From: Escherichia coli
GTDB lineage: Bacteria > Pseudomonadota > Gammaproteobacteria > Enterobacterales > Enterobacteriaceae
NCBI RefSeq assembly: GCF_024700885.2
Contig: NZ_CP117016.1
Strand: one strand, 5' to 3'
Length of the DNA: 64,000 nucleotides
Shown here: positions 22,972 through 43,370 of the stretch, piece by piece
Numbering within the stretch: the stretch's first letter is position 1
How the letters are laid out: each line of letters opens with the position of its first letter
Position numbers and translations under genes: made by a program
The notes under the pieces: model-generated
What the model was told of the DNA's origin: nothing
Database searches by the model: none
Seen by the model: only the letters and a program-made list of their open reading frames with translations

Positions 22972-23021
22972 ATGAGTGCAATAGAAAATTTCGATGCCCA
23001 TACGCCCATGATGCAGCAGTA
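22972..23021 (+). pseudogene. mutS: Orphaned original 5' end of mutS (first 17 codons, [17 protein letters not shown]) displaced by the island
   Basis: Sequence encodes the native MutS N-terminus as I recall it and then diverges abruptly into AT-rich island DNA; the frame ends after 17 further island codons. Confidence 0.8.
22999..23021. repeat. Left copy of the imperfect direct repeat flanking the island (attL candidate)
   Basis: CATACGCCCATGATGCAGCAGTA; 19 of 23 positions match the right copy at 40836-40858, with an identical ATGATGCAGCA core. Confidence 0.65.
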
Positions 23022-23079
23022 CCATTTTTCTATGGTTAACCTGTTGAAATTTAGCAATAAAGTGTTTGGTAAGTAGACT

Positions 23080-23365: not shown

Positions 23366-23635
23366 ATGTCTATCGATATCAATAAGTTAAAATCAAAATT
23401 AATTGAAGATTATAAATTCGCTGACGAGATTAGCGATGATGAAATCAATATAGTTTTAAGTGAAATACACAAAAAGGGTGCCTCAACACCAAAAGAAGTA
23501 GACGAAATTGTCTATACGGTATTAGAGGGTAAAAGGCATTATGCTTTCGAAAGTCTGGATACATCCAATACTACATCCCTTGCATTACAGTTAATTCAGG
23601 CGGCAAAGGTATATGCTCAAACACAAGGAAGATGA
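23366..23635 (+). CDS. Hypothetical small acidic protein
   Basis: 89-aa ORF from an ATG preceded by GGGAG; AT-rich island DNA; no recognisable motif. Confidence 0.45.
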   Translation: MSIDINKLKSKLIEDYKFADEISDDEINIVLSEIHKKGASTPKEVDEIVYTVLEGKRHYAFESLDTSNTTSLALQLIQAAKVYAQTQGR

Positions 23636-24401: not shown

Positions 24402-24448
24402 TATCCAAGCGGATATCAGTTTAGATCTTAAAAGGAAAAAAATCCAAA

Positions 24449-24943: not shown

Positions 24944-25153
24944 AACAACCCCCATAGGAATTATTAATGCATTCATTGAAATAATAGCAGCAAAAACCAC
25001 TGCTAAATAATCATTCTTTGTGTCATAAAACAAAAACACAACAATATTTAAAAATAACACAAAGAGATAAAAAAGCATATCTTTAATATTCATAACAGCC
25101 TCCTTTTTTCTAATTTGATAATTTACAAATATCTTAATATAACGAAAAGTCAA
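24878..25153 (-). CDS. Hypothetical small membrane protein (uncertain)
   Basis: 91-aa hydrophobic ORF; its 3' end overlaps the preceding plus-strand ORF convergently, so one of the two may be spurious. Confidence 0.3.
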   Translation of the reverse strand: MTFRYIKIFVNYQIRKKEAVMNIKDMLFYLFVLFLNIVVFLFYDTKNDYLAVVFAAIISMNALIIPMGVVLLFDSVLLRIKKRFNAGNSHF

Positions 25154-25244
25154 CTTACCCGATAAAAAATAGTTATTAGAACACCTTAAACTGATAATTA
25201 CATTAATAAATGCGAGTGATGAAATTTTTGAGTGAGATCATAAA

Positions 25245-25568
25245 TTGTTGAGGCGTAAAGTTGTTGATATACCTGCTGTTCTGGTAAGTACTGCCATAAT
25301 AAAGGGCTGGTCTCCATCTGGTTTACTGCTTATATTTGTAGCTATGCTACTTAAGTGCTCTGTCGTTATATTGGGTATACATAATGCCCAAAAATCATTA
25401 TCGGATATTATTGAATCATCTAATAAGACGATGATTTTATTCACGAAAGATAATGCCAATGATGATGACGAAGCATTAACCAACCGTATTAATCAGATCA
25501 CAACCGAAGCTTTAACCAAACTCAGTAATAAAAAAGTTGATGCTGAAAAAACCTTGAATAAGCTCTAA
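25245..25568 (+). CDS. Hypothetical membrane-anchored protein (uncertain start, TTG)
   Basis: 107-aa ORF with one hydrophobic segment; an alternative 81-aa ORF exists on the opposite strand. Confidence 0.3.
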   Translation: MLRRKVVDIPAVLVSTAIIKGWSPSGLLLIFVAMLLKCSVVILGIHNAQKSLSDIIESSNKTMILFTKDNANDDDEALTNRINQITTEALTKLSNKKVDAEKTLNKL

Positions 25569-28894: not shown

Positions 28895-29308
28895 TTATTT
28901 TTTGTTTTTGGGAAAAATTTGATCTTCTCTAATACATTTACCATATGCAACCATTTGAAGATCTCTAACCATAAGTAGAAGCCTGTTATTTTCACTAACT
29001 AACCTCGAATTTTCTGTTTCTAATTTACTGATTTTATTCGAAGCATAGGCAAGACTTTGAGGACTTTTAATATGCTTAACAGTTTCACCTTTAGTTCTCT
29101 TTTTCTGCTGATATGCATAAGCTATTACTGTATGTCTTGAAAGAGCCTGTCTCGTTGGTTTTTTACCGAAATGATCCTCTACGGAATCACAAAGACTGAC
29201 CCAAGTTAAATCGCCTTCCCAGCCATTTATTTTATCGAGAACGAATTCAATATCTTCCTTGTTAAACTTTTTACTCATTATGTTCTCCTCTAAGATAATA
29301 ACTAACAA
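28895..29308 (-). CDS. Small coiled-coil protein co-operonic with the recombinase trio (real start possibly MSKKFNKED at 29278)
   Basis: 137-aa ORF overlapping the stop of the upstream recombinase; C-terminal heptad-like KISKLETENSRLVSENNRLLLMVRDLQ. Confidence 0.5.
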   Translation of the reverse strand: MLVIILEENIMSKKFNKEDIEFVLDKINGWEGDLTWVSLCDSVEDHFGKKPTRQALSRHTVIAYAYQQKKRTKGETVKHIKSPQSLAYASNKISKLETENSRLVSENNRLLLMVRDLQMVAYGKCIREDQIFPKNKK

Positions 29309-30917
29309 TATGATTTATAATTTTACTAACTTCTTGGATTTCCTTTTCAACATAATTCGCTTTCTGTGAATTATATTGGCTTCTGTATAAATTATTCTTT
29401 TCTTCAAGCGTTTGTAAATGGTCTTTAATTTTGCAAATAATATCATCCTTACTCCCTCCACCTAAATCAGAAATCATTTCATCAGCAAATAATACTCTTC
29501 GTTCGTTTTGTCGCAACTCCTCCCAAGTTCGGTTATCATACACATTATTTTGTTCAACATTTTTCCTCCCTGACCAAAAAGCTATTTCTATATCAGAGAG
29601 CATAGCTCTTTGAGCAAGAGTGTTTAAAAGATGTCTTGGCTGATGACTACTAAAAATCTCTTTCATACCATTGGGTTGTAATGTTTTATGTCGTTGAAAA
29701 AAATTTAAGGTAGTTTCTTTTTCTGACCTTTTTTTAAAATCAGCAATAAACATCTTTTTATTTGCGGGTAAGACACAGAATAAATCAATTCCTTTCTTTA
29801 AATGTAATTGATCTTTATTTAGGATTAACAATCTATTACTAAGGTTTATAGATTTTGAAAATTCATCCCAAGATTTTGTTTTATCGCTATAATTAAAAAC
29901 TTCATTCCAAAATTCTTTTGCACTAAGAATCCCACTCTCTACCCTCATTAATATATTTTTAGTTTTAACATTGAAGCAGTCCATACAGTTTAGATTTAAA
30001 AGCTTATACAACTTTGTATGAAAATATCGTCCATTCTCATCAGTCTCTAAACTCTTATAAAACTCCAATTCTCCTTTTTCTCGTAGGGTAGCTATGCACC
30101 TTGCCGTTTGTGATAATACCCTTAATCTTTTAATGGCTAATTTTGCTATTGAATGCATATTCCTTGGAATCCACTTTATACTTTCACCATAGCCTTTTGC
30201 ACTATGATAACGAATGCCATAGGAGCCTTTCCCCTCTATGTCGTTCCCTTCAACTTCACAATCCACCTCAAGACTCAGGACTTCTGATATTCGTGTTGGA
30301 GCACAAAGAAGCAGTGCGATGATAGATGTTGTAAATATATCTCTTTGGCTTTTATCATTAGAACTAAAAACCCTACCAACAAGATCTATGACTTCCTCTT
30401 CTGGTAACTTATTTTTAATTTCTTTTTGCCCTATAAGATCTCTTACAGCTTTATTTCTAATTATTCTAAGCCTGGAGTTAAACTTACTTAATTTTGGATT
30501 TATTATGTTATTTATAGCTAACACTTCTAAAATATTCTTTAATGCCTTTTCAATAGCCCCCGCACGACTATTAGAATATTTCTTTTCTACTTGGAATAAA
30601 ATGTTGTTGATAACCTCAGAATTAATATTAACAATATGTGGTTCTACATTCAAAGTGAAGAATGAACTTTCCATAATTTTTATGACCGCCAAATAAAGTA
30701 ATGATTTACTGAGATTAGGGAAACACTCTCTATATATAATAACCTTTGATAATTGTTGAAAATGCGCTCCCATGTCTTTATCTTTTTTTATATGATTGTT
30801 ATTTTTAAATGAAACCCCTCTACCCCATGACAAATCATCCCAATTTATAATATTTTCTTTTTTTGCCTGTATCCTTACTTCATTAGCTAAAACATCATAA
30901 TTATTATAATGACTCAT
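29271..30917 (-). CDS. Tyrosine recombinase family protein (third of three tandem paralogues)
   Basis: 548-aa ORF; candidate catalytic residues in order: R in CAPTRISEVLSL, HQPRHLL (HxxR), W in FWSGRK, Y in NNVYDNR. Confidence 0.6.
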   Translation of the reverse strand: MSHYNNYDVLANEVRIQAKKENIINWDDLSWGRGVSFKNNNHIKKDKDMGAHFQQLSKVIIYRECFPNLSKSLLYLAVIKIMESSFFTLNVEPHIVNINSEVINNILFQVEKKYSNSRAGAIEKALKNILEVLAINNIINPKLSKFNSRLRIIRNKAVRDLIGQKEIKNKLPEEEVIDLVGRVFSSNDKSQRDIFTTSIIALLLCAPTRISEVLSLEVDCEVEGNDIEGKGSYGIRYHSAKGYGESIKWIPRNMHSIAKLAIKRLRVLSQTARCIATLREKGELEFYKSLETDENGRYFHTKLYKLLNLNCMDCFNVKTKNILMRVESGILSAKEFWNEVFNYSDKTKSWDEFSKSINLSNRLLILNKDQLHLKKGIDLFCVLPANKKMFIADFKKRSEKETTLNFFQRHKTLQPNGMKEIFSSHQPRHLLNTLAQRAMLSDIEIAFWSGRKNVEQNNVYDNRTWEELRQNERRVLFADEMISDLGGGSKDDIICKIKDHLQTLEEKNNLYRSQYNSQKANYVEKEIQEVSKIINHIVSYYLRGEHNE

Positions 30918-32274
30918 TATTCATGCCCTCCTTGTTGAGCAATTCGATTATTTTATTTATTTTACATTCTAACATTGTGAATAAGTCCGTTAGGATTTCA
31001 AAGTCTGCTTGCTTCGTATAATCTGCTATTAATACTCCAGTAAGCTTTTTTATGATTATCAAATCGTCAACCAATCTAAGGGTAATGTCGTCACTGTTTT
31101 TTAAAAATGAGGAAATATAAGGGCTTACTAACTCATTTATTGCCTGATCTATTCTGAATGAAAACTCTTCATTGTTTTTTGCATACGACAATACTGATTT
31201 CAAATTGCTATGATCTAAAGCTTTTGCTATCGTACCTAATCCATAACCTTTAAGTGCAAGCCTTGTGGCTAATGTAACCCTAAGTTGCCGAGAGTTAATC
31301 TTTTTATTTTTATCTTTACTTACCCTTTGGCAAATGGCCTGAACCCTACCGGTTATCCTCTTAGAACTCATATGCAAATTGAAGAAGTTATTTTCATATA
31401 ATTTATCAAGTTTGTAAGTCGAGTTAAAAAAACAAGGATCAATAAAGAGGGGTAAATTGTTTAATTCATCTTCACTTAATATATCGCCTACCTCACCCTG
31501 CACAAAAACCTTAACTACTGATTTAAGCTCTGATAGTGAATTGAACAAATTATCCCCTATACGCAATTCGGAAAAATCAGTTCTGAAACTATCTCCTTGT
31601 TTTAATCTGGGTATGTTTAAAAAATTACCATTTTCTTTGATATAAAGATCCTTCCTTTTTAATTGAGCGATCTGCATTGGTCTTCGCCCCGAATATATCA
31701 TCAGCATGACTAAAAGGTAGTCATTCATAGTCATATTTCCATCATTGTATTCCTTTGTCATGCCCCCAATTAGGTTCTTCAGTTCGTATTCAGATAATGG
31801 TCTTAAAGACTCTTTTCGCTCAATATATGCAGTTGTCTTGTTGGGTTTAGTTACTTTCCATTTTAAAATCAAATCCAGCATTTCTTGATCTATGAATTCA
31901 TTATTTAACTCATAATGTTTTATTATAAAATACTTTAAACTTTCAACATGTGTATAGCTTATTTTATAATATGCATTGTAAAATCTATTTAGTAATCCAT
32001 AGTCAAATTTGTCCAACTTCCCTTGATTAAAAACAACGAGTTTTTTTATAGAAAAGAAAAACTTTCTCGCATAAGCTGAACTAAAATTCACAGCAGTATA
32101 GGCAAGGGTCTCTTTTATAGATGCTAATAAGATAGCATTAATGTTTCTTTCAAAATATGAGAAATTTAATTTAACATCTTTGCTGAGAAACCAAACACTA
32201 TCATGTAAACTAAAATTATTTCTGCTGTCTTTTGCCTTTAATACCAAGTAATTTTCTAACATTAATGCTTTCAT
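30904..32274 (-). CDS. Tyrosine recombinase-like protein with degenerate catalytic motifs (second of three)
   Basis: 456-aa ORF; SGRRPMQIAQL (box I Arg), SRQLRVTLATR, LDHSNLKSVLSYAKN; overlaps both neighbours. Confidence 0.5.
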   Translation of the reverse strand: MKALMLENYLVLKAKDSRNNFSLHDSVWFLSKDVKLNFSYFERNINAILLASIKETLAYTAVNFSSAYARKFFFSIKKLVVFNQGKLDKFDYGLLNRFYNAYYKISYTHVESLKYFIIKHYELNNEFIDQEMLDLILKWKVTKPNKTTAYIERKESLRPLSEYELKNLIGGMTKEYNDGNMTMNDYLLVMLMIYSGRRPMQIAQLKRKDLYIKENGNFLNIPRLKQGDSFRTDFSELRIGDNLFNSLSELKSVVKVFVQGEVGDILSEDELNNLPLFIDPCFFNSTYKLDKLYENNFFNLHMSSKRITGRVQAICQRVSKDKNKKINSRQLRVTLATRLALKGYGLGTIAKALDHSNLKSVLSYAKNNEEFSFRIDQAINELVSPYISSFLKNSDDITLRLVDDLIIIKKLTGVLIADYTKQADFEILTDLFTMLECKINKIIELLNKEGMNNESL

Positions 32275-33508
32275 CTATTTCTCCTTCAATTTTATTTATG
32301 ATTTCTTGATTCACTAAATCTGCCTCTTCAAAAGCTTTTAAAGTTTCTTCACTAATATAACGATTGTTATAAATCAAAGCCGTTTTGGAGTTCATTTTCC
32401 ACCCCATTCTTACGCATCTGATTCTATCTAATTGGGTCAATCTATATTGATCAGTGACTCCTATGTATTTTAAACTGTAAATATAGTTCCATGTGTGCCG
32501 TAGACAATGCCCTGTGAAATTTTGAAAAGATACTCCATTGAATTCAATTCTACTTATTTGCTTAATTACTTTATGATATGCACTTATTGACAGAGGAAAT
32601 CCTTCCGTAGGACCAGATTTTTGAGTAATAAATAAGTAATTATGATTTAAGCTTTTCGAATAGAAAGACCTATCATTGTCTATATATGAAGAGATTTGCA
32701 TAGACAATTTTTTGCTAATATTTAATTCTCGTTCAAATGTTTTAACAAGTGGTTGAAAAACTCTTGGGTCTGCTGGATCATTTATTCTTTTACAAACTTT
32801 CAGATATCTTTTTTCCTTGTTAAAATCAGTAATTTTCAAGTTCAATAGCTCACCCCCTCGCATTCCAGTTTCCTGAAGAATGAGGATTATGAGTTGATTT
32901 CTTTTACGGCAACTGATATCAACAAATGGATTGTATTGGCTTTCAGGTTCTATACATTGCAATAGAATGTCTAAGCTTTCTTTTTCTAATGATTTAAAAT
33001 CATTATTCAAATAGAATTGAGAGTTTAATTTTGGTTTATGTTTACGAAAAAGCAAACTAACACTTTTTGATATAATGTTTGTCTCATATATTGTAGTGCT
33101 AAAATATGATTCATAAATCCAAGAAATGTAGGAACTAATTACTGTCAATCTATAATGAAGATTTTCTTGATTGATCTTTTTATACTCTTTTATATCTATA
33201 ACTTTTTGTTTTTTATTTTTAACTCTAAGTTGTTCTGACAATGAATAGATTTCAGTAAAGCTAAGGAAGGTCTTAGATCTAATTCTTTCGATAAGATTTA
33301 TATTTGATTCTATTAGATAATTTTCAAAAGCAATCAAAGTGTAAGCATTTCTCAATACTGTATTAAATGACTTATTCTTTTGCTTATATAGCAAACTAAG
33401 ATATATATTTTGATAATACAATGGCAAACCGTTTTTTGAATCCAAAATCATACAAAATCTGCTTCCATCACTCGCCATTAACTTCTTTACTGAATATCTC
33501 CTATTCAT
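32216..33508 (-). CDS. Tyrosine recombinase family protein (first of three; start set at MNRRYSVKKL after a GGGGTGA RBS, ORF extends to 33547)
   Basis: GMRGGELLNL (box I Arg), HCLRHTW (HxxR), GWKMNS, ALIYNNRY (Tyr) in canonical order. Confidence 0.65.
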   Translation of the reverse strand: MNRRYSVKKLMASDGSRFCMILDSKNGLPLYYQNIYLSLLYKQKNKSFNTVLRNAYTLIAFENYLIESNINLIERIRSKTFLSFTEIYSLSEQLRVKNKKQKVIDIKEYKKINQENLHYRLTVISSYISWIYESYFSTTIYETNIISKSVSLLFRKHKPKLNSQFYLNNDFKSLEKESLDILLQCIEPESQYNPFVDISCRKRNQLIILILQETGMRGGELLNLKITDFNKEKRYLKVCKRINDPADPRVFQPLVKTFERELNISKKLSMQISSYIDNDRSFYSKSLNHNYLFITQKSGPTEGFPLSISAYHKVIKQISRIEFNGVSFQNFTGHCLRHTWNYIYSLKYIGVTDQYRLTQLDRIRCVRMGWKMNSKTALIYNNRYISEETLKAFEEADLVNQEIINKIEGEIDESINVRKLLGIKGKRQQK

Positions 33509-33626
33509 TATCACCCCATAATTTATTTTTTTATTTATAGGTAACATAATTTTTTAGCAAGTTACAAATTTATTTGCTATTATTTTCAATGACCTTATTA
33601 CTCGCGACTCTAATAAAGAATCGGCC

Positions 33627-33680: not shown

Positions 33681-33757
33681 GCGGTAGTAGTTCAGTTGGT
33701 CAGAATATTCCCCTGTCACGGGAATGGTCGTGGGTTCGAGTCCCATCTATCGCGCCA
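33681..33757 (+). tRNA. tRNA-Asp (anticodon GUC), foreign island-borne copy
   Basis: Manual cloverleaf: acceptor GCGGTAG/CTATCGC, D stem GTTC/GAAT, anticodon stem TTCCC/GGGAA with loop CUGUCAC, T loop TTCGAGT, 3' GCCA; differs from my recollection of the host tRNA-Asp. Confidence 0.8.
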
Positions 33758-33761
33758 GAAA

Positions 33762-33836
33762 GGGCAATTAACTCATTGGTAGAGTGTATCTCTTACAAAG
33801 ATATGGCGGTTGGTTCGATTCCAACATTGCCCACCA
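33762..33836 (+). tRNA. tRNA-Val (anticodon UAC), foreign island-borne copy
   Basis: Manual cloverleaf: acceptor GGGCAAT/ATTGCCC, D stem ACTC/GAGT, anticodon stem TATCT/AGATA with loop CUUACAA, T stem GTTGG/CCAAC, 3' ACCA. Confidence 0.8.
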
Positions 33837-33847
33837 AAACATAAAAT

Positions 33848-33917
33848 GCGTCAGTATTTCAATGGTAGAATAAAACATTGCCAATGTTTAGGTGAGGGTT
33901 CGATCCCCCTATATTTA
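33848..33917 (+). pseudogene. Degenerate tRNA-like sequence with a Gly (GCC) anticodon arm
   Basis: Intact anticodon arm AAACA-TTGCCAA-TGTTT and a T-loop-like GGGTTCGATCCCC, but the acceptor strands GCGTCAG and ATATTTA cannot pair. Confidence 0.4.
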
Positions 33918-34104: not shown

Positions 34105-34680
34105 ATGGTACGAAAAATCTCTACATTTTTAAAGATAATAGGAGTTATAGGTTCTTTATGCGGGATTATTGCGACAGTATTCACAATCTATGCGTACTAC
34201 AACCCGACCTCCCCTTCTACTCAGAGATATGACAGTATTGTAGGAAGCTGGCTATCTGATTACTCTTACACCGTAAAAGGGAATACCGTTAGGGTTAATG
34301 GAAAAACGACCTTCTTCTCTAATGGAAAATACAACTTTCATGGCAGTATCTCTATTGACTCTAATGCTCCAGGTGACCATATATTAATAGATTATCTTTC
34401 TGATGGTGCTGGTGATTGGGAACTATATGATAATGAGTTAATTACATCATTAAATAGCCTAAAAACAAAACCTATGAAGCTGGCTTTAAATAACGAAGAT
34501 CTTGATCCACTGAAAATAGAGGTGATAAACAATAAAAAGTTACCAACTATTGAGGAGAATATGGCTGATGGGAAAAACCAATCCTATAAAATAATAAAAT
34601 CTTCAAAAAGCCAGTTAACATTGGAGGTTATTAACGAAATCGGAAGCAATTTCAACTTTACTATGCAAAAAACAAAATAG
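34105..34680 (+). CDS. Hypothetical membrane-anchored or secreted protein
   Basis: 191-aa ORF with an N-terminal hydrophobic segment followed by a Ser/Thr/Asn-rich domain. Confidence 0.45.
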   Translation: MVRKISTFLKIIGVIGSLCGIIATVFTIYAYYNPTSPSTQRYDSIVGSWLSDYSYTVKGNTVRVNGKTTFFSNGKYNFHGSISIDSNAPGDHILIDYLSDGAGDWELYDNELITSLNSLKTKPMKLALNNEDLDPLKIEVINNKKLPTIEENMADGKNQSYKIIKSSKSQLTLEVINEIGSNFNFTMQKTK

Positions 34681-34711
34681 AAATGATGGCGATCTGAAAT
34701 CGCCATCATTT
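34681..34711. terminator. Perfect 13-bp stem hairpin, bidirectional terminator between the convergent 191-aa ORF and the helicase gene
   Basis: AAATGATGGCGAT-CTGAA-ATCGCCATCATTT with A/T runs on both sides, filling the gap between two stop codons. Confidence 0.75.
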
Positions 34712-34712
34712 T

Positions 34713-36560
34713 TCAACCTTGATAATCTTCAGCCTCGATACCACAATAAGTTATCATGTTTGTTATTAACGGTATATCATTACAATTCTGCTTGAAAGAC
34801 CTGCCATAACTATTGTTTCTTATTTTACAACGAGTCATTAATACTTCTTCAATGGCTCTTGAAAATGCCACAAAGACTGTTTTTTGATTTTCTATTTGCT
34901 CTTCTTCTTTACCAAAATAGGCACCAGGTTCAAGCCCCACAACGATGACCTTCCTGAACTCTAACCCTTTACTTTTATGGATGGTCATAAGAGGTATTGT
35001 TTTATTGCCAAGTAATAAATCAATGGCTTCTGATGTGTTTTCTTTTACATCTAACTTATCGAGGTGGCGAGAAAGTAATTCTATGCTATATTCTAAAACA
35101 TTCCCACTCATATACTGCGGAAAGTAAGACTTTATTTTATCGACACCAAATATACTTAATAATGAATATAAATAATCGACAATTTCTCCTTTAATTACCC
35201 GATGAGATTTAATAAACTGGCTAAGTTCTTTTTCTAACCGTGTAACATCACCTCTTTTACTTACTCCTCTTATATTACATAGAAGCTCCATTGTAGTGGC
35301 CCAGCTTTCTATGGATTTTCTATTACAGACAAACATTAGCATTTGTAAAAGTAACTGTACTACAGCTTCATTTAAAAGATCCTGATACTCGTTCTCAAGG
35401 CGACATTGTATTTTCAAATATTGCAATGCTGAAATGATATCGTCTGTATATTGTTTAGCCGGGTTTCTTAGCAGTATACATATATCTCTTTCATTTACTC
35501 CTTCAGCAATCCATTGCTGGATACATAATGCTATATATGCCCCTTCAATACTACTTTCGTCAAATTGTAGTAACTTAGCTGAACCTTCATTTTCAATCAA
35601 CATCATATCAGGCTTTATATCAGCATGATTCATGAAAGCTTCCATCATGCGTTGATAATTTATGAGGTTTTTTAATGACCTTCTATTGCTAACTAATTCA
35701 TTAGATTGTTCGATTCCAAAATCTTTTTTAAACACATCAAAAGCATTGTGCATTGCACCTGCCCAACCCATTATTCTTTGTTTTGTATCACCGACTGCTG
35801 TTATTTTTATTTTTTTACCCAAGAAAATGCTCTTAAAAATCTCATATTGCCTATATGTTGTGTCCTGAAACTCATCGATAAAAGCATAGTCATATGTTGA
35901 ATTTATAGCATTAGATAAATATTGATTCCTACTAATAATATAATTAGCAAGAAAATTAATCATCTTGAATGAAATCCTTGATTTTGGTTTTAATAAGTGT
36001 AACCACACAAACCGTCTTATCCTGCCATCAACAGAATGTTCTAATGCTTTATTATAAGGAGTTACTATATAATTCTCTTCAAAATTATAAGGTTGTAATT
36101 TATTTAATTCTTCAGATGTTAAACCTTCAAAGCCTACGGCCTCTCTTTTAATTTCTTCAACTAAATCATTATTATTTGGAAAGATTATTTCATAGTCATT
36201 TGATGGACGATAAGATTCCGGAATAGTGCTTTTAAAGCGATCAACAATACTTTTACAGAATGCATCAAATGTTGTTGATTCAAATTTGTGTCTATATTTT
36301 GTATCAAGCCGTGAGTTTACTCTATCTTGAAGATTTTTGGCCGCATCTTTTTTAAAGGATAATGCAATTATTTTTTTATTGCTGCATTTTCCTGTCTCAA
36401 TCAAGAAACAAGCTTTCTGAGCCAATAATTCTGTTTTACCTGCACCGGGACCAGCAAGAACGAGATTATGCCCTGTACTATTTCGAATTACCCTCATAGC
36501 CTCGTCTTCTACTTCTTGGATATCCTTTAAAACCCAATCGGCATCTTTAATAGTCGGCAT
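34713..36560 (-). CDS. gajB: UvrD/PcrA-like superfamily 1 helicase, Gabija GajB-like
   Basis: 615-aa ORF with Walker A (LAGPGAGKTELL), DEFQDTT motif and C-terminal HKSKGLEF motif; start codon shares one nucleotide with the upstream ATPase stop. Confidence 0.65.
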   Translation of the reverse strand: MPTIKDADWVLKDIQEVEDEAMRVIRNSTGHNLVLAGPGAGKTELLAQKACFLIETGKCSNKKIIALSFKKDAAKNLQDRVNSRLDTKYRHKFESTTFDAFCKSIVDRFKSTIPESYRPSNDYEIIFPNNNDLVEEIKREAVGFEGLTSEELNKLQPYNFEENYIVTPYNKALEHSVDGRIRRFVWLHLLKPKSRISFKMINFLANYIISRNQYLSNAINSTYDYAFIDEFQDTTYRQYEIFKSIFLGKKIKITAVGDTKQRIMGWAGAMHNAFDVFKKDFGIEQSNELVSNRRSLKNLINYQRMMEAFMNHADIKPDMMLIENEGSAKLLQFDESSIEGAYIALCIQQWIAEGVNERDICILLRNPAKQYTDDIISALQYLKIQCRLENEYQDLLNEAVVQLLLQMLMFVCNRKSIESWATTMELLCNIRGVSKRGDVTRLEKELSQFIKSHRVIKGEIVDYLYSLLSIFGVDKIKSYFPQYMSGNVLEYSIELLSRHLDKLDVKENTSEAIDLLLGNKTIPLMTIHKSKGLEFRKVIVVGLEPGAYFGKEEEQIENQKTVFVAFSRAIEEVLMTRCKIRNNSYGRSFKQNCNDIPLITNMITYCGIEAEDYQG

Positions 36561-38548
36561 TAAAGTAATCCTCTTACTGTTTCGATAATTTCATTAAGAA
36601 CTTCAGGACTATCATCTCTTAACTTATCGTCTTCCATTTTTGATAGAACATAATTGTGCGATAATGGTTTACCTCTTCCTAAAAATAGGTAACGATACCA
36701 AAAATATTTTTCATAATCATCGAACTCACTAATATCAATATCTTTCTCTTCTTTTTTCAAAACTGCAGCAATTGCCGATTTAACTTTATTATCATATTCA
36801 TGATCGTCATCTTTTGGCAATCTTGGCCCACCATTTTTGGGAACAAATGTCTTATAATCCTCAAAGAATTTATTAAGCATTAGCCAATCTAAATCGTAGG
36901 GGTAAGAAAAATAAACATTATAATCTTTTAGACAATTAATCCATGCCGATTCATTATCTTGATCCTCATCCCATGTATGCATTTTTTCAAGCTCTTCATC
37001 ACTTAAAGTTCCTGAAGTAATACTTAACAATTCATTTTTATCTGCACCTATAGATATTAATTGTTTGACTGCATATTTAATTCTTCCCCAACCACCACCT
37101 CCTCCTCTCTTGAAATCATAGTCGAGAAGAGTCACATGTGGAATTGAAAGCTCATTGAGTAACTTCCAAAAATGATTAACATATCGCCCTCCTAATGGAG
37201 CAAATGTTATCAATGAAGTGTCAAGCTCTATACCATTTACTTGAGCTATTTTAGGTATTACTATTTCTTCGCTATCACCTTCACCAAGTATTACAACTTT
37301 TGCAAAATAAATTTCTGGATATGCCTTCACTGCTTCTTTTACATAAGTGAAAGTATCAACATTGTCTCCATCGTCTTCATCTTCGCTTGGTAATAATATT
37401 GGTTTGACAACAGTATTTTTATTATCATGTAGACGAAAATACCTTATATTTTCTGGTTCTACTCTATTGAGTAATGAAGGTGCGTGTGTTGTTAAAACAA
37501 CCTGTGCTCGATCATTCTCAGATATATCTTCACATAGTTTAACTATTCTTCCTAAATATTGGGGTGAAAGATGATTTTCTGGTTCTTCGATTAATATTAT
37601 CGTTAAATTTGGAGGATCTAATGCTTCTACTGATATTGATAATTCATTTTCTCCTGAATTAATGATCTCATCTTCAATATCAAATGCAGATTTGACTAAC
37701 GAAAGATAAAACAATGACTTCATACCATCACTCAATCTTTCAGTTGGTAATGGCTGAGTCACCGGAGTAGGCATAAATACAGTATCTATATGCTTTAATA
37801 CATCTTCTATTCCATTCATTACTGGCTGAATTTTAAGCTGTTCAAAATACCCTCCGCTAAAAAGAGTTTTCCAATTTCTGCCCAATGAAGATGTTATTGT
37901 CTGAACCCCAATTTCTTCTTGGAACTGGTTTCCGATTGATTCTGCAACCTCATCAACCGTTGAACTCATCTGTTCAGACCATTCAACTGCATTTATCAAA
38001 CGGTGCATGATGGTTCCGGCTGTTTGCTTCAGTTGTTGAGCAGGATCGCGATAAGCAGGGACATAATGAACATGGATTTTTGATCTTTCATATGCTGTAA
38101 TATTTTTTTCATATTCTCCTATTTCCCATACTAAATCACTATCTATATCCCCTTCTGCAAGATTAGTTTTTGTCCATTTAGCTTTTAATTTTGCTATACA
38201 GTATGGGATCTGGTCTGCTTCATTTGAGACCAAATGCTTAAAGAAATCAGCGACTGAATCGTCCTCACCATCTTGCAGATCTGCAAATTCAAATTTTACA
38301 CGAACTGATAATTCTCTTTCATCTTGAGTATCGATTTCATCTCCAGGAGGAACATAAAAATCATCAACTTGAACAATTCTATCGGAGCTTTTGACACCAA
38401 ACATCCTTGTCAATGCGAGGAGAACAGCCGTCTTACCTGTTCCATTCCCTCCAATTAAGCTGGTGAATGAATTTATATTTATAGTTTGCCCTACATTATC
38501 AAAGCTCTTAAAACCTTTGATCTCCATTTGTGTAATTTTCATTATCAC
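36560..38548 (-). CDS. gajA: OLD-family ATPase-TOPRIM nuclease, Gabija GajA-like
   Basis: 662-aa ORF with ABC-type Walker A (LIGGNGTGKTAVLL), Walker B and H-loop region (IILIEEPENHLSP) and a C-terminal TOPRIM-like VVILGEGDSEE. Confidence 0.65.
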   Translation of the reverse strand: MIMKITQMEIKGFKSFDNVGQTININSFTSLIGGNGTGKTAVLLALTRMFGVKSSDRIVQVDDFYVPPGDEIDTQDERELSVRVKFEFADLQDGEDDSVADFFKHLVSNEADQIPYCIAKLKAKWTKTNLAEGDIDSDLVWEIGEYEKNITAYERSKIHVHYVPAYRDPAQQLKQTAGTIMHRLINAVEWSEQMSSTVDEVAESIGNQFQEEIGVQTITSSLGRNWKTLFSGGYFEQLKIQPVMNGIEDVLKHIDTVFMPTPVTQPLPTERLSDGMKSLFYLSLVKSAFDIEDEIINSGENELSISVEALDPPNLTIILIEEPENHLSPQYLGRIVKLCEDISENDRAQVVLTTHAPSLLNRVEPENIRYFRLHDNKNTVVKPILLPSEDEDDGDNVDTFTYVKEAVKAYPEIYFAKVVILGEGDSEEIVIPKIAQVNGIELDTSLITFAPLGGRYVNHFWKLLNELSIPHVTLLDYDFKRGGGGGWGRIKYAVKQLISIGADKNELLSITSGTLSDEELEKMHTWDEDQDNESAWINCLKDYNVYFSYPYDLDWLMLNKFFEDYKTFVPKNGGPRLPKDDDHEYDNKVKSAIAAVLKKEEKDIDISEFDDYEKYFWYRYLFLGRGKPLSHNYVLSKMEDDKLRDDSPEVLNEIIETVRGLL

Positions 38549-39195
38549 CTCAATTGCTGTTTTAAAAAATTATAATCACTAATTATTTCTGCGTTTGTAA
38601 TGATTTCTTGTGAGCACAGCTTAAAACATTCTAAAAATATATTTTTATTATCGTTATGTTCCCAATGTTTTTTCAAAGCTTCTTCAATTGAAATCCAAAT
38701 AACTTGAAAATCGTTATTAGATATTTGGCTTGTTAAAACTGTTTCTTCCACACAAAGTATATGCCCTAAGATGACATCATCGTATATGTCAGTATCTGAA
38801 TCTCTAACTCCTAACCTTTTTATTTTCCTTTTTTGGATGATTTTATTTTTAACAATAAAAGGATGTTCTTCTATAAAATCGGTCAATGATGTAAAAGCCA
38901 AGCCACGAACCTGAGCACCATGCATTGAACTATTTACTTTATGGATATCTCTCCAAACTCGCAGATCACCTAATACATAGAGAACCCGCTGATTTCTCGC
39001 TTTCGTATCTTCTGCTTGGTATTGGATATAAGGTGGCCCTCCCCCATTTTGTCTATATCGGGCAAGGGTTTTGATGCTTATGCCAAGAAAGACAGAAGCA
39101 AGCTCACTATTTACAGTGGCAGAATCAGGCATTTGACCAAATAGTTTCCATACCTCTGAATACTCCCGCAAAACTTCCACCACACTCATCTTCAC
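38545..39195 (-). CDS. Uncharacterised protein with an N-terminal HTH-like motif, translationally coupled between the integrase and the ATPase (possible true start at ATG 39189)
   Basis: 216-aa ORF; ELASVFLGISIKTLARYRQNGGGPP resembles excisionase/AlpA-type HTH; its start overlaps the integrase stop and its stop overlaps the ATPase start (ATGA). Confidence 0.5.
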   Translation of the reverse strand: MKMSVVEVLREYSEVWKLFGQMPDSATVNSELASVFLGISIKTLARYRQNGGGPPYIQYQAEDTKARNQRVLYVLGDLRVWRDIHKVNSSMHGAQVRGLAFTSLTDFIEEHPFIVKNKIIQKRKIKRLGVRDSDTDIYDDVILGHILCVEETVLTSQISNNDFQVIWISIEEALKKHWEHNDNKNIFLECFKLCSQEIITNAEIISDYNFLKQQLR

Positions 39196-40655
39196 TCCCT
39201 CGTTTCAGGTAATGGAGGATACTTAGCCGAAGCAAGTAACACATTGTATAATTTAGGAGCAGTCATAAGCATATGCAACTCAATCCTTTGTAATGCTTCA
39301 AAAATCCGTTCTTGATCAGGTTCTGCATACCTTTCTGTTGGATCTGTTGTATTTCTGTGATTGAGCAGTCTCTTAACGACGGCATATGAAACAAGTTCTT
39401 CAGCAACCCTACCAAATGTCCTTCGTAGATCATGCATACCAAGCTTCAGGATTCCCGCCTCTTGGCAGATATATTCCCTTAGACTTTTACTATCGGAATA
39501 GTGACCAACTTTACTTCGAGAAGAACGGGCCGGGAAAACCCACTTCTGTTTGTCCTTCTGGGTTACCGTATCGTTTACTATGTCTCTTCTATCTTCCAAA
39601 ATTCTTTTGACAGCATCACAAATCGGAAGCTCGTGATCGTTTCGATTCTTAGTGTCGTAAAAACGGATAGTTCTGTTACTCAGGTCAACATAGCTTGTCG
39701 TTTTAGCTTCTTCCTTTGTAAGAGACTCTCGCCAACACAGAGAAGCTGTTTCTTCCTTACGAGCACCTAAGAGAACGGTAAGTAGCAGATAATCGCACCC
39801 AAGCCGGTTGAAGCTTCTCTTGTTGAACAATGCAGTCAAGAACCGACCAAGTGTATCCTTTGGTGATAAGGGGTTTCTGACACCTTTTGCCCGATAACTA
39901 TCCTCAAGCTCAGAACGTGTCCTAAACTTTTTCTGTACCTTTAAGATACTGAAAGGGTTGTAAGATAGAGAAGGTTGTCGTTGCTGGGTCTGAGCATTCC
40001 CAGCTTCAATCTCTATTGCGTGTTTTACAGCAACATTCGCCCACCTAAAGGTCTGTTCCGCTGCTGTTCTGGCTCTTGAAGCAATCTCATCAAACTTCCT
40101 AAGAATTTCATTACCAGTAAGATCTTTAACTCGCAAACCAGCCCACTCAGAAAGCCTGTTTTCTGCTTTATCTAATACAGCCAAGGTGTTGGGTTTAGCT
40201 GGTTTCGCTCTACCCAGCAGATGCTGGCGGTATTGTGCAAACACTTCACTGATAGTGAGTTCAGAAGCATCGGACTCCCGTTTTATTTTGTTAGGGTTCC
40301 TTTTGGTCAACTTCATGGTTTGAACTAAATTGCGAGCAACCTCGCGGGCTTGATCGATGTTAGCGAAATCAGAGACATTGCCAATTGTAGACCTGATAAC
40401 CTCAGATGGGGATTTTCCCCCTGTCTTAGGGCGATTGCCAGGAGAAGAGACTCGTCGCTGAACGATATAGGTCTTTTTCGTTGCACTGATTTTGACACCA
40501 AAACCAACGGGTGAATCCCGGTGATTATCAGTGATAAGATACGGTTTTCGCTCTGGATTGGGTAAGTAGACTACTCTGCCTTGCGGATCAAGGCTCGGTT
40601 TCACGTCGATAGATAACTTATTGATTATAATCGACTGATTGAGTGTCATTTTCAT
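39192..40655 (-). CDS. Tyrosine integrase, P4-like family with N-terminal arm-binding domain (ORF extends to 40763; start set at MKMTLNQ)
   Basis: Box I LLGARKEETASL, HDLRRTFG (HxLR) and C-terminal NHRNTTDPTERY; lies at the island border next to the target gene. Confidence 0.8.
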   Translation of the reverse strand: MKMTLNQSIIINKLSIDVKPSLDPQGRVVYLPNPERKPYLITDNHRDSPVGFGVKISATKKTYIVQRRVSSPGNRPKTGGKSPSEVIRSTIGNVSDFANIDQAREVARNLVQTMKLTKRNPNKIKRESDASELTISEVFAQYRQHLLGRAKPAKPNTLAVLDKAENRLSEWAGLRVKDLTGNEILRKFDEIASRARTAAEQTFRWANVAVKHAIEIEAGNAQTQQRQPSLSYNPFSILKVQKKFRTRSELEDSYRAKGVRNPLSPKDTLGRFLTALFNKRSFNRLGCDYLLLTVLLGARKEETASLCWRESLTKEEAKTTSYVDLSNRTIRFYDTKNRNDHELPICDAVKRILEDRRDIVNDTVTQKDKQKWVFPARSSRSKVGHYSDSKSLREYICQEAGILKLGMHDLRRTFGRVAEELVSYAVVKRLLNHRNTTDPTERYAEPDQERIFEALQRIELHMLMTAPKLYNVLLASAKYPPLPETRE

Positions 40656-40787: not shown

Positions 40788-43370
40788 ATGAGTAAAATCA
40801 ATATGAAAGAGTCTGCAAGCAAGGATCTATCAGACCACACTCCTATGATGCAGCAATATCTCAAGCTGAAAGCCCAGCATCCCGAGATCCTGCTGTTTTA
40901 CCGGATGGGTGATTTTTATGAACTGTTTTATGACGACGCAAAACGCGCGTCGCAACTGCTGGATATTTCACTGACCAAACGCGGTGCTTCGGCGGGAGAG
41001 CCGATCCCGATGGCGGGGATCCCCTACCATGCGGTGGAAAACTACCTCGCCAAACTGGTGAATCAGGGCGAGTCCGTTGCCATCTGCGAACAAATTGGCG
41101 ATCCGGCGACCAGCAAAGGTCCGGTTGAGCGCAAAGTTGTGCGTATCGTTACGCCAGGCACCATCAGCGATGAAGCCCTGTTGCAGGAGCGTCAGGACAA
41201 CCTGCTGGCGGCTATCTGGCAGGACAGCAAAGGTTTCGGCTACGCGACGCTGGATATCAGTTCCGGGCGTTTTCGCCTGAGCGAACCGGCTGACCGCGAA
41301 ACGATGGCGGCAGAGCTGCAACGCACTAATCCGGCAGAGCTGTTGTATGCAGAAAATTTCGCCGAGATGTCGCTGATTGAAGGTCGTCGCGGACTGCGCC
41401 GTCGCCCGCTATGGGAGTTTGAAATCGACACCGCGCGCCAGCAGTTGAATCTGCAATTTGGCACCCGCGATCTGGTCGGTTTTGGCGTCGAGAACGCGCC
41501 GCGCGGACTTTGTGCTGCCGGTTGTCTGTTGCAGTATGCGAAAGATACCCAACGTACGACTCTGCCGCATATTCGTTCCATCACCATGGAACGTGAGCAG
41601 GACAGCATCATTATGGATGCCGCGACGCGTCGTAATCTGGAAATCACCCAGAACCTGGCGGGTGGTGCGGAAAATACGCTGGCTTCTGTGCTCGACTGCA
41701 CCGTCACGCCGATGGGCAGCCGTATGCTGAAACGCTGGCTGCATATGCCAGTGCGCGATACCCGCGTCTTGCTTGAGCGCCAGCAAACTATTGGCGCATT
41801 GCAGGATTTCACCGCCGAGCTGCAGCCGGTACTGCGTCAGGTCGGCGACCTGGAACGTATTCTGGCGCGTCTGGCTTTACGAACTGCTCGCCCACGCGAT
41901 CTGGCCCGTATGCGTCACGCTTTCCAGCAACTGCCGGAGCTGCGTGCGCTATTAGAAAATGTCGATAGCGCTCCGGTACAGGCGCTGCGTGAAAAAATGG
42001 GCGAGTTTGCCGAGCTGCGCGATCTGCTGGAGCGAGCAATCATCGACACACCGCCAGTGCTGGTACGCGACGGTGGTGTTATCGCACCGGGCTATAACGA
42101 AGAGCTGGATGAGTGGCGCGCGCTGGCTGACGGCGCGACCGATTATCTGGAGCGTCTGGAAGTCCGCGAGCGTGAACGTACTGGCCTGGACACCCTGAAA
42201 GTCGGCTTTAACGCGGTTCATGGTTATTACATTCAGATCAGCCGTGGACAAAGCCATCTGGCACCCATCAATTACATGCGTCGCCAGACGCTGAAAAACG
42301 CCGAGCGCTACATTATTCCAGAGCTAAAAGAGTACGAAGACAAAGTTCTCACTTCAAAAGGCAAAGCACTGGCACTGGAAAAACAGCTTTATGAAGAGTT
42401 GTTCGACCTGCTGTTGCCGCATCTGGAAGCGTTGCAACAGAGCGCGAGCGCGCTGGCGGAACTCGACGTGCTGGTGAACCTGGCAGAACGGGCCTATACG
42501 CTGAACTACACCTGCCCGACCTTTATTGATAAACCGGGTATTCGCATCACCGAAGGCCGCCATCCGGTGGTTGAACAGGTGCTGAATGAGCCGTTTATCG
42601 CCAACCCGCTGAACCTGTCGCCGCAGCGTCGCATGTTGATCATTACCGGTCCGAATATGGGCGGTAAAAGTACCTATATGCGCCAGACCGCACTGATTGC
42701 GCTGATGGCCTACATCGGCAGCTATGTACCGGCACAAAAAGTCGAGATTGGACCTATCGATCGCATCTTTACCCGCGTAGGGGCAGCGGATGATCTGGCA
42801 TCCGGGCGTTCAACCTTTATGGTGGAAATGACCGAAACCGCCAATATTTTACATAACGCCACCGAGTACAGTCTGGTGCTGATGGATGAGATTGGGCGCG
42901 GGACGTCCACTTACGATGGTCTGTCGCTGGCGTGGGCGTGCGCGGAAAATCTGGCGAATAAGATTAAAGCGTTGACACTGTTTGCCACCCACTATTTCGA
43001 GCTGACCCAGTTACCGGAGAAAATGGAAGGCGTCGCCAACGTGCATCTCGATGCGCTGGAGCACGGCGACACCATTGCCTTTATGCACAGCGTGCAGGAT
43101 GGCGCGGCGAGCAAAAGCTACGGCCTGGCGGTTGCAGCTCTGGCAGGCGTGCCAAAAGAGGTTATTAAGCGCGCACGGCAAAAACTGCGTGAGCTGGAAA
43201 GCATTTCGCCGAACGCCGCCGCTACGCAAGTGGATGGTACGCAAATGTCTTTGCTGTCAGTGCCAGAAGAAACGTCGCCTGCGGTCGAGGCACTGGAAAA
43301 CCTCGACCCGGATTCACTGACTCCGCGTCAGGCGCTGGAGTGGATTTATCGCTTGAAGAGTCTGGTGTAA
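40788..43370 (+). CDS. mutS: DNA mismatch repair protein MutS with an island-encoded replacement N-terminus
   Basis: 860-aa ORF; matches the MutS sequence as I recall it from HTPMMQQYL onward (Walker [10 protein letters not shown] present), but the first 16 residues [16 protein letters not shown] are encoded by island DNA. Confidence 0.93.
40836..40858. repeat. Right copy of the imperfect direct repeat flanking the island (attR candidate), inside the mutS coding sequence
   Basis: CACACTCCTATGATGCAGCAATA; 19 of 23 positions match 22999-23021. Confidence 0.65.

What the first reader, a model, noticed from the sequence alone, without database searches (positions are those of the whole stretch)
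34713..38548. Gabija-like anti-phage pair on the island
A 662-aa protein with ABC-type ATPase motifs and a C-terminal TOPRIM-like segment is followed, with a one-nucleotide stop/start overlap, by a 615-aa UvrD-like helicase. An OLD-family nuclease paired with a UvrD-like helicase is the defining architecture of the Gabija defence system. Both proteins are longer than the prototypes I recall (about 580 and 490 aa), so this may be a divergent subtype.
Basis: partly seen in the sequence, partly recalled or inferred. Interest (0 to 1): 0.75.

Follow-up and report, generated by a model that had tools for sequence, protein, structure and literature searches.

The report
Ordinary Gabija defence pair, long form
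The two genes are an intact Gabija anti-phage pair (an OLD-type nuclease and a UvrD-type helicase) of a long-form lineage that defence-system catalogues already cover, carried as cargo on a mobile island inserted into the start of the E. coli mutS gene.

Summary
Two translationally coupled minus-strand ORFs (gajA-like 36560-38542/38548, gajB-like 34713-36560, TAATG overlap) lie on a ~17.8 kb AT-rich island. The interpretation also holds. The first protein matches PADLOC GajA model PDLC00090 end to end (E 1.9e-240), the second GajB model PDLC00103 (E 2.6e-198). Pfam finds AAA_15 plus OLD-like TOPRIM, and UvrD-helicase plus UvrD_C. The TOPRIM residues (E421, E425, D474/D476, D550/D552) and the Walker and helicase motifs are invariant across the relatives I aligned. 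The nuclease-helicase pairing persists down to 31% identity in unrelated contexts.

The "divergent subtype" idea is only partly right. The pair is far from the Bacillus cereus prototype: about 15-17% identity for GajA, and the GajB model resembles UvrD/PcrA/Rep more than BcGajB. But it belongs to a large long-form lineage (about 650-700 aa and 600-630 aa) that catalogue models built for it already cover.

The candidate third gene (216 aa) and the convergent 191-aa gene are island backbone. Sibling mutS islands carry them with other cargo (DRT type 3, a NACHT protein, a DUF2971 protein).

The mutS-ygbA site is published E. coli defence hotspot #8. I found no phage-challenge test of this lineage. 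Interest is low.

The parts
36560..38542 (-). gajA: class 2 OLD-family nuclease, 660 aa from the ATG at 38542 (662 aa if the GTG at 38548 is used). It has an N-terminal ABC-type ATPase, a TOPRIM domain and a C-terminal helical domain.
   Evidence: PADLOC GajA PDLC00090, E 1.9e-240, covering model positions 1-652 of 659. Pfam AAA_15, AAA_21 and OLD-like_TOPRIM. A profile alignment to B. cereus GajA runs end to end at E 2e-23 and maps BcGajA E379, D432/D434 and D511/E513 onto E421, D474/D476 and D550/D552. All of these are invariant in 52 homologues. The AF2 model has pLDDT 83.5, and its best Foldseek hits are GajA structures 8u7i, 8x5i and 8sm3.
34713..36560 (-). gajB: UvrD/PcrA/Rep-like superfamily 1 helicase, 615 aa. 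Its start overlaps the gajA stop by one base (TAATG).
   Evidence: PADLOC GajB PDLC00103, E 2.6e-198, covering 3-608 of 612. Pfam UvrD-helicase and UvrD_C. The helicase motifs are invariant in 7 homologues at 29-88% identity: GPGAGK(42), DEFQD(229-233), GD..Q(257-261), R294, T.HKSKGLE(526-534), S567-R568. The AF2 model has pLDDT 82.7, and its best fold hits are UvrD, PcrA and Rep at E about 1e-29. The overlap is shown.
38569..38574 (-). Candidate -10 promoter element (TATAAT) 26 nt upstream of the gajA ATG, inside the 3' end of the 216-aa gene.
   Evidence: The hexamer is conserved in the window, Klebsiella, Pectobacterium and Pantoea upstream regions. In Pantoea, similarity to the window starts only about 45 nt before the ATG. 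This is a consensus match only; it is not shown to be functional.
34681..34711 (.). 14-bp-stem hairpin in the 32-nt gap between the gajB stop and the stop of the convergent 191-aa gene. It is a probable bidirectional terminator and marks the 3' end of the gajAB operon.
   Evidence: Terminator-like site found by the scan: 14 pairs, loop of 3, T-rich tail.
38545..39195 (-). Context, not part of Gabija: 214/216-aa island backbone gene with a conserved N-terminal helix-turn-helix region. Probably an excisionase or regulator of the island.
   Evidence: No PADLOC, NCBIfam or significant Pfam hit. It is absent next to gajAB in Pectobacterium and Pantoea. Homologues at 48-51% identity sit in sibling mutS islands that carry other cargo.
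34105..34680 (+). Context, probably not part of Gabija: 191-aa gene with an N-terminal transmembrane segment, convergent with gajB.
   Evidence: It travels with gajAB at 73-87% identity, even in the different Pantoea island. Its 40-46% identical relatives lie in sibling islands without Gabija, and distant gajAB pairs lack it.
39192..40655 (-). Context: island tyrosine integrase, divergent from mutS. RefSeq annotates 487 aa; the mechanical ORF extends to 40763.
   Evidence: Annotated as a tyrosine-type recombinase/integrase on the identical DNA. Pfam Phage_integrase on the homologues. The end coordinate 40655 is my calculation from the 487-aa RefSeq call.
22997..23022 (+). Context: left island junction (attL-like). 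It is the displaced native mutS 5' end, whose ORF remnant starts at 22972 and reads [17 protein letters not shown].
40834..40859 (+). Context: right island junction (attR-like) inside the mutS coding sequence. The island supplies a surrogate start, [24 protein letters not shown].

Best explanation
This is a two-gene Gabija anti-phage system (a class 2 OLD nuclease GajA plus a UvrD-like helicase GajB) of a long-form lineage. It is carried as the defence cargo of a mobilisable island integrated into the 5' end of mutS. What the sequence shows: both genes are intact, translationally coupled and full length relative to catalogue models, and every catalytic motif is present. What I infer by homology to the B. 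cereus system: GajA and GajB assemble into a hetero-oligomer. The GajA ABC ATPase domain binds nucleotides and keeps the TOPRIM nuclease off at normal NTP levels. During phage infection, through nucleotide depletion and/or exposed phage DNA ends, GajA nicks or cleaves DNA by two-metal TOPRIM catalysis. GajB engages the resulting DNA ends and hydrolyses (d)ATP/(d)GTP, which stops phage replication, possibly at the cost of the cell. The pair probably has its own promoter about 30 nt upstream and a hairpin terminator downstream. It does not need the neighbouring 216-aa or 191-aa genes.
For: Classifier models: GajA E 1.9e-240 and GajB E 2.6e-198, both full length. Domains: AAA_15 with OLD-like TOPRIM, and UvrD-helicase with UvrD_C. 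Catalytic set: E421, E425, D474, D476, D550, D552 and K37 are invariant in 52 homologues at 29-90% identity. They align to BcGajA E379, D432/D434 and D511/E513 and to the positions of the BpOLD metal A and B ligands E400/E404/D455/D457/T506/E508 described in PMC6755086. Fold: the best PDB matches are GajA structures, E about 1e-24, TM 0.55-0.65. Pairing: a 600-630 aa UvrD helicase immediately follows in Klebsiella, Pectobacterium and Pantoea, and in three metagenomic contexts at 46%, 36% and 31% GajA identity. Defence context: in the sibling islands examined (L011-L014), the region between the integrase and the 184-199-aa gene instead holds DRT type 3 (Drt3a 4e-130, Drt3b 2.7e-206), a NACHT protein or a DUF2971 protein. 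The mutS-ygbA site is hotspot #8 for defence islands in E. coli (PMC10121019 supplement). The mechanism of the prototype comes from PMC8136825, bioRxiv 10.1101/2023.05.02.539174, PMC10781630 and bioRxiv 10.64898/2026.07.10.737580.
Against: No experiment on this lineage turned up in six full-text searches. The E. coli Gabija tested by Wu et al. is from ECOR49. Its GajA mutants are numbered K35 and H317, as in the short prototype, and E. coli plasmids gave no tblastn hit to this GajA at E<=1e-20. Similarity to the characterised B. cereus proteins is low: pairwise E about 1e-11 over partial stretches and 15-17% identity in structural alignment. The class 1 OLD from Thermus scores almost as well by fold. 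The GajB model matches housekeeping UvrD, PcrA and Rep, and BcGajB is not among its top 50 fold hits. So the details may differ: stoichiometry, DNA sequence preference, nucleotide sensing, and nicking versus processive cleavage. P2 OLD was recently reported to cleave tRNA rather than DNA in vivo, so the in vivo substrate of untested OLD lineages is not certain.
Confidence: 0.9

Rival explanations
1. The pair is a housekeeping module of the mobile island: a PcrA/Rep-like helicase plus a nuclease serving rolling-circle replication, transfer or repair of the excised element, not phage defence.
For: The island encodes a relaxase (26269-27450). By sequence and fold the helicase is closest to PcrA, Rep and UvrD, and those enzymes support rolling-circle replication (established knowledge).
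Against: The same pair occurs in unrelated contexts without a relaxase or this integrase. In the sibling islands examined, which keep the same backbone, the region between the integrase and the 184-199-aa gene holds DRT type 3, NACHT or DUF2971 genes instead of this pair, so it is dispensable cargo. The nuclease is an OLD-family protein, and all characterised bacterial classes of that family are defence proteins.
Confidence: 0.04
2. It is a Gabija-architecture system whose effector chemistry differs from the B. cereus prototype. For example, GajA could cleave tRNA as reported for P2 OLD and PARIS AriB, or it could degrade DNA processively with a true translocating helicase.
For: The pair is very distant from BcGajAB. 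GajB has the full size and the fold matches of UvrD/PcrA/Rep. B. pseudomallei class 2 OLD degrades DNA processively (PMC6755086). P2 OLD cleaves Val(UAC) and other tRNAs in vivo.
Against: There is no direct evidence. All class 2 OLD enzymes studied so far act on DNA. The active-site residues are the same as in those DNA-cleaving enzymes.
Confidence: 0.06
3. It is a three-gene system that needs the upstream 216-aa helix-turn-helix protein or the convergent 191-aa membrane protein.
For: If the GTG start is used there is a 4-nt overlap with the 216-aa ORF. The 191-aa gene accompanies gajAB even in the different Pantoea island.
Against: The 216-aa gene is absent in Pectobacterium and Pantoea. Both genes have homologues in sibling islands that lack Gabija. 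Distant gajAB pairs have neither gene. With the ATG start used by RefSeq there is no overlap.
Confidence: 0.05

Closest known systems
Gabija system of Bacillus cereus VD045 (GajA 578 aa, GajB 494 aa; PDB 8SM3, 8U7I, 8J4T, 8X5I)
   Same: The gene order is the same, gajA then gajB. GajA has the same ABC ATPase, TOPRIM and helical-domain layout. E379, D432/D434 and D511/E513 correspond to E421, D474/D476 and D550/D552, and the Walker A lysine and the EEPE Walker B are shared. BcGajA structures are the best fold matches.
   Different: Identity is only about 15-17% in structural alignment. GajA here is about 80 residues longer, mostly in the C-terminal helical domain and an insert before Walker B. 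GajB is about 120 residues longer, and BcGajB does not appear among its top 50 fold hits while UvrD, PcrA and Rep do. The host is a Gram-negative chromosome. This lineage is experimentally untested as far as I could find.
Class 2 OLD nucleases of Burkholderia pseudomallei and Xanthomonas campestris (PDB 6NK8, 6NJV; PMC6755086)
   Same: OLD nuclease paired with a UvrD-like helicase. The two-metal TOPRIM site E400/E404/D455/D457/T506/E508 corresponds to the invariant E421/E425/D474/D476/D550/D552. There is a C-terminal helical domain with an invariant lysine (K625 here), which may correspond to K562.
   Different: Sequence matches cover only the TOPRIM core (E 1e-8 to 1e-11). The K625-K562 correspondence is inferred, not shown.
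PADLOC-DB Gabija sub-models PDLC00090 (GajA) and PDLC00103 (GajB)
   Same: Both proteins fit end to end at about 1.1-1.2 bits per residue, and model lengths of 659 and 612 match the proteins. The lineage is therefore already catalogued as Gabija.
   Different: None at the level that can be tested.
Phage P2 Old (class 1 OLD) and Thermus scotoductus OLD (PDB 6P74)
   Same: Same ATPase-TOPRIM fold. 6P74 scores E 3.7e-22 by Foldseek and 2.5e-23 by profile.
   Different: Class 1 proteins are stand-alone genes without a helicase partner. Here the helicase is translationally coupled and conserved.
E. coli defence-island hotspot #8, mutS-ygbA (Hochhauser et al. 2023, PMC10121019)
   Same: Same chromosomal site. 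It was occupied in 27 of 1322 E. coli genomes in that survey, and 13 of 5426 complete genomes carry this gajAB.
   Different: I did not find integration inside the mutS coding sequence, or the surrogate mutS 5' end, described in the texts I could read.

Membership tests
Gabija / class 2 OLD system | GajA is a single polypeptide with an N-terminal ABC-type ATPase domain and a TOPRIM nuclease domain. | tested here: met
   Pfam AAA_15 at 3-359 (E 1e-25) and OLD-like_TOPRIM at 415-478 (E 1.5e-15). The AF2 fold matches GajA and OLD structures.
Gabija / class 2 OLD system | A UvrD/PcrA/Rep-like helicase gene (gajB) lies immediately downstream in the same operon. | tested here: met
   One-base TAATG overlap. 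Pfam UvrD-helicase and UvrD_C. The pairing is conserved in all 9 other distinct contexts examined, down to 31% GajA identity.
Gabija / class 2 OLD system | Complete TOPRIM active site: invariant Glu, DxD, and the additional metal B ligands. | tested here: met
   E421, E425, D474, D476, D550 and D552 are invariant in 52 homologues and align with BcGajA E379, D432, D434, D511 and E513. G451 aligns with BcGajA G409.
Gabija / class 2 OLD system | Recognition by curated defence-system profile models for both components. | tested here: met
   PADLOC GajA E 1.9e-240 and GajB E 2.6e-198, both full length. The next non-GajA families score far lower: Old 1e-30, AriA 1.5e-28, PtuA 5.5e-23.
Gabija / class 2 OLD system | Intact SF1 helicase ATPase motifs in GajB. 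| tested here: met
   Walker A GPGAGKT (K42), DEFQD (229-233), motifs III, IV, V and VI are invariant in alignment A5.
Gabija / class 2 OLD system | GajA and GajB form a hetero-oligomeric complex (4:4 in B. cereus). | not testable with these tools
   Only monomer models could be predicted.
Gabija / class 2 OLD system | Confers protection against phage. | not testable with these tools
   No experiment on this lineage was found in six full-text searches. The ECOR49 Gabija tested in E. coli has GajA mutants numbered K35 and H317, as in the short prototype.
PARIS (class 4 OLD, AriA/AriB) | ATPase and TOPRIM are encoded as separate proteins. | tested here: not met
   Both domains are in one 660-aa protein. 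The AriA model matches only the ATPase part, residues 3-359, at E 1.5e-28.
Class 1 OLD (P2 Old-like) | Stand-alone gene without a helicase partner. | tested here: not met
   The helicase is coupled and conserved.
Septu / retron-associated PtuA | ATPase without TOPRIM, partnered with an HNH nuclease PtuB (with or without a reverse transcriptase). | tested here: not met
   PtuA models match only the Walker B region at scores far below cutoff: 51.8 bits against a cutoff of 500. No HNH or RT gene is adjacent.

The most novel reading that the evidence does not exclude
The long-form Gabija lineage (GajA of about 660 aa with an enlarged C-terminal helical domain, and a full-size UvrD/PcrA/Rep-like GajB) has not been tested in any paper I found. 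It may work differently from the B. cereus prototype, for instance as a processive helicase-nuclease or on RNA substrates as reported for P2 OLD. Separately, its carrier is a family of Enterobacterales islands that integrate inside the mutS coding sequence and replace the mutS promoter and first ~10 codons with a conserved surrogate. Acquiring the defence island could therefore change mismatch-repair expression.
Probability: 0.12. Interest if true: 0.5.

Novelty: already known. Interest (0 to 1): 0.2.

Why it matters
For the finding itself, little changes. A standard defence-system classifier would label this pair as Gabija, identical proteins are already in RefSeq, and the chromosomal site is a published defence hotspot. 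What this analysis adds is modest. It defines the minimal unit to clone: two genes with about 45-80 nt upstream and the downstream hairpin, not three genes. It shows that the commonly cited 580/490-aa sizes describe only one branch of a broad family. It also records that the best-studied prototype is a poor sequence proxy for the form found on Enterobacterales chromosomes, so mechanistic details should be re-tested in that form. The carrier island may deserve separate attention, because it swaps defence cargo at a fixed region and rewrites the 5' end of mutS.

Tried and rejected
1. The 216-aa upstream gene as a third Gabija component. Rejected: it is absent in Pectobacterium and Pantoea and present in sibling islands with other cargo. 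It has no family hits; the best is HTH_17 at E 0.21.

2. The convergent 191-aa membrane protein as a partner. It co-travels with gajAB at 73-87% identity, including in Pantoea. Rejected as a required part: its 40-46% identical relatives flank non-Gabija cargo and distant gajAB pairs lack it.

3. A new subtype on the basis of length. Rejected: PADLOC models of 659 and 612 positions fit end to end, and a large family of similar length exists.

4. Identity with the E. coli plasmid or ECOR49 Gabija that has been tested. Not supported: the GajA mutants of that system are numbered K35 and H317, as in the short prototype, and no E. coli plasmid matched this GajA at E<=1e-20.

5. Other defence genes on the island. 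No PADLOC hits for ten further ORFs.

6. Structured RNAs near the operon. Rfam finds only the tRNAs.

7. A phage origin for the island tRNAs. Only generic tRNA-level similarity of 70-78%.

8. Literature on Gabija clades or subtypes, or on integration into the mutS 5' end. Nothing specific found.

9. Measuring whether K625 reaches the active site in the AF2 model. Not possible, because model coordinates are not exposed to the script tool.


Full report
**Observation**

The window is E. coli chromosome. It runs fhlA, ygbA, an AT-rich island, mutS, pphB, and on to rpoS. GC falls from about 0.53 to about 0.31 between roughly 22.7 and 40 kb.

On the minus strand of the island lie ORFs 36560..38548 (662 aa, GTG start) and 34713..36560 (615 aa, ATG start).

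The more probable gajA start is the ATG at 38542, giving 660 aa. It follows an AGGTG ribosome-binding site, it is the start RefSeq uses on identical DNA, and the profile alignments begin there. Residue numbers below use the 660-aa form.

At this base composition an open frame of 660 codons has a chance probability near 1e-23 (my calculation). The ORFs are real genes.

**What the proteins are**

The first protein has Pfam AAA_15/AAA_21 ATPase domains and an OLD-like TOPRIM domain. The second has UvrD-helicase and UvrD_C domains.

Against PADLOC-DB, the first protein fits GajA model PDLC00090 end to end (positions 1-652 of 659, E 1.9e-240). The second fits GajB model PDLC00103 (3-608 of 612, E 2.6e-198). 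Rival OLD-related families score far lower: Old 1e-30, AriA 1.5e-28, PtuA 5.5e-23. NCBIfam has no equivalog for either protein; only sub-threshold PtuA, UvrD, PcrA and Rep hits appear.

**Relation to the characterised prototype**

Pairwise sequence searches against the PDB reach B. cereus GajA only at E about 1e-11, over residues 315-484. They reach BcGajB at about 1e-11, while PcrA and Rep score 1e-24 to 1e-25.

I collected 50%-identity cluster representatives. 292 have E<1e-30, and most are 640-700 aa and align over their full length. I aligned 52 of them, at 29-90% identity to the window protein.

The resulting profile aligns BcGajA residues 1-529 end to end at E 2e-23. This places BcGajA E379, D432/D434 and D511/E513 on window E421, D474/D476 and D550/D552. 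All of these, together with K37 (Walker A), E319-E322 (Walker B) and E425, are invariant in the 52 sequences.

These positions correspond to the two-metal site defined for class 2 OLD nucleases: E400, E404, D455, D457, T506 and E508 in B. pseudomallei OLD (PMC6755086). They also correspond to the BcGajA active site described in PMC10781630. An invariant K625 in the C-terminal helical domain may correspond to the catalytic K562 of BpOLD. That is an inference I could not test.

An AlphaFold2 model of GajA (pLDDT 83.5) finds GajA structures as its best PDB matches: 8u7i, 8x5i and 8sm3, at E 1e-23 to 1e-25 and TM 0.55-0.65. The class 1 OLD from Thermus is close behind.

The GajB model (pLDDT 82.7) matches UvrD, PcrA and Rep at E about 1e-29. 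BcGajB is not in its top 50. All SF1 helicase motifs are invariant in seven GajB homologues.

**Conserved pairing**

Close homologues at 80-93% identity are common in Klebsiella, Enterobacter, Salmonella, Pantoea, Pectobacterium, Yersinia and Dickeya. In every context I opened, a 600-632 aa UvrD-like helicase gene follows directly. These contexts were Klebsiella and E. coli, Pectobacterium, Pantoea, and three unrelated metagenomic contigs at 46%, 36% and 31% GajA identity. The lineage also occurs on plasmids of Bacillus, Rhizobium, Vibrio and Pseudomonas at 36-39% identity.

This satisfies the published definition of class 2 OLD / Gabija: an ATPase-TOPRIM protein with a downstream UvrD/PcrA/Rep-like gajB (PMC12392090).

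**The neighbouring genes**

The upstream 216-aa ORF has no family hits. It is missing beside gajAB in Pectobacterium and Pantoea. Homologues at 48-51% identity, with a strongly conserved N-terminal 115 residues, sit in sibling islands that carry other cargo.

The convergent 191-aa gene has an N-terminal transmembrane segment. It accompanies gajAB at 73-87% identity even in Pantoea. However, its 40-46% identical relatives lie in sibling islands without Gabija, and distant gajAB pairs lack it.

Both are therefore island backbone genes, and the functional unit is two genes.

In Pantoea, similarity to the window begins only about 45 nt upstream of the gajA ATG. A TATAAT hexamer 26 nt upstream of the ATG is conserved in all four upstream regions. 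A 14-bp-stem hairpin fills the gap after gajB. Together these suggest a self-contained operon.

**The carrier**

The island spans about 23.02-40.85 kb. It has a tyrosine integrase divergent from mutS, three consecutive tyrosine-recombinase-like genes, and a relaxase.

Its junctions lie inside the mutS coding sequence. The native start ([17 protein letters not shown]) is stranded at 22972. The functional mutS begins with island-encoded [24 protein letters not shown]. An imperfect 25-bp repeat marks both junctions.

Sibling islands in Klebsiella, Pectobacterium, Serratia and others all supply a similar surrogate MutS N-terminus. In the sibling islands examined (L011-L014), the region between the integrase and the 184-199-aa gene holds other cargo instead of gajAB. 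This cargo is DRT type 3 (Drt3a 4e-130, Drt3b 2.7e-206), a NACHT protein, or a DUF2971 protein. That supports reading this region as a defence-cargo site.

The mutS-ygbA site is hotspot #8 in the E. coli defence-island survey, occupied in 27 of 1322 genomes (PMC10121019 supplement). Here, 13 of 5426 complete E. coli genomes carry this gajAB, all on the chromosome. The three I opened have it beside mutS. No other PADLOC-recognised defence gene is on the island.

**How it most likely works**

This section is inferred by homology. [quoted passage not shown] GajB senses the DNA termini and hydrolyses (d)ATP/(d)GTP. The two form a GajA-tetramer-centred complex (PMC8136825; bioRxiv 10.1101/2023.05.02.539174; PMC10781630).

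A newer proposal is that phage DNA-end-binding proteins license GajAB by excluding RecBCD (cited in bioRxiv 10.64898/2026.07.10.737580).

The window proteins keep every residue these models need, so I take the same scheme as the best explanation (confidence 0.9 for "Gabija defence system"; lower for the details).

**Caveats**

The lineage is distant from the prototype. Its GajB looks like a full UvrD/PcrA/Rep helicase. P2 OLD was recently reported to act on tRNA in vivo. I found no phage-challenge data for this lineage. The E. coli Gabija tested by Wu et al. comes from ECOR49, and its GajA mutants are numbered K35 and H317, as in the short prototype.

**Verdict**

The "divergent subtype" remark is true only in the sense that the family is broad and the prototype sits on another branch. 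Catalogue models built for this lineage already cover it. Novelty: already known. Interest: 0.2.

Noticed in passing
window 22972-23022 and 40788-40859: The island is integrated inside the mutS coding sequence. The native mutS start ([17 protein letters not shown]) is stranded at the left junction. The island supplies a new promoter region and a surrogate N-terminus ([24 protein letters not shown]), with an imperfect ~25-bp repeat at both junctions. Sibling islands in Klebsiella, Pectobacterium and Serratia give MutS a similar surrogate N-terminus. mutS expression may therefore depend on island DNA.
   Followed up: partly
L011 2121-3950; L013 9009-10392; L014 11154-14431 (sibling mutS islands): Islands with the same integrase, HTH gene, 184-199-aa gene, recombinase trio and relaxase carry different cargo where the window has gajAB. 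L014 has DRT type 3 (Drt3a and Drt3b), L011/L012 a NACHT protein plus an unknown 232-aa gene, and L013 a DUF2971 protein (weak PDC-S31 hit) plus unknown genes. This is a cargo-swapping defence island family.
   Followed up: partly
window 33681-33910: The AT-rich island encodes tRNA-Asp(GTC), tRNA-Val(TAC) and a third truncated tRNA-like sequence (Rfam 34 bits), between the 191-aa gene and the recombinase trio. They are present in an 82%-identical E. coli sibling island but absent from the Klebsiella sibling, and they have no close phage match. P2 OLD is reported to cleave tRNA-Val(UAC), so foreign tRNAs beside an OLD-family system are curious.
   Followed up: partly
window 29271-33547 (minus strand): Three consecutive overlapping tyrosine-recombinase-like genes (443, 456 and 548 aa) resemble the 'three integrases' (GInt/Tn6571-like or recombinase-trio) elements. 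NCBIfam hits are weak or below cutoff: integrase_1 at 221 bits against a cutoff of 350, and GmtY at E 2.4e-6. The third protein has no family hit. In strain CFSAN061761 an IS1 interrupts it.
   Followed up: partly
L008 5950-6000 (Pantoea agglomerans): The Pantoea gajAB cassette sits in a different island, with a P4-type integrase at tRNA-Pro(GGG) and a 1837-aa DUF4011 helicase gene as neighbour. It still carries the last ~14 codons of the 214-aa backbone gene upstream of gajA. This indicates the cassette was captured from a mutS-type island.
   Followed up: partly
window 23312-25568: The left arm of the island encodes several small proteins (107, 262, 164 and 107 aa), some with predicted membrane segments. 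None has a PADLOC match. This arm differs between E. coli sibling islands.
   Followed up: no
window 26269-27450: The relaxase/mobilisation protein contains a (Pro-Val)x9 repeat, PVPVPVPVPVPVPVPVPV, in its linker region.
   Followed up: no
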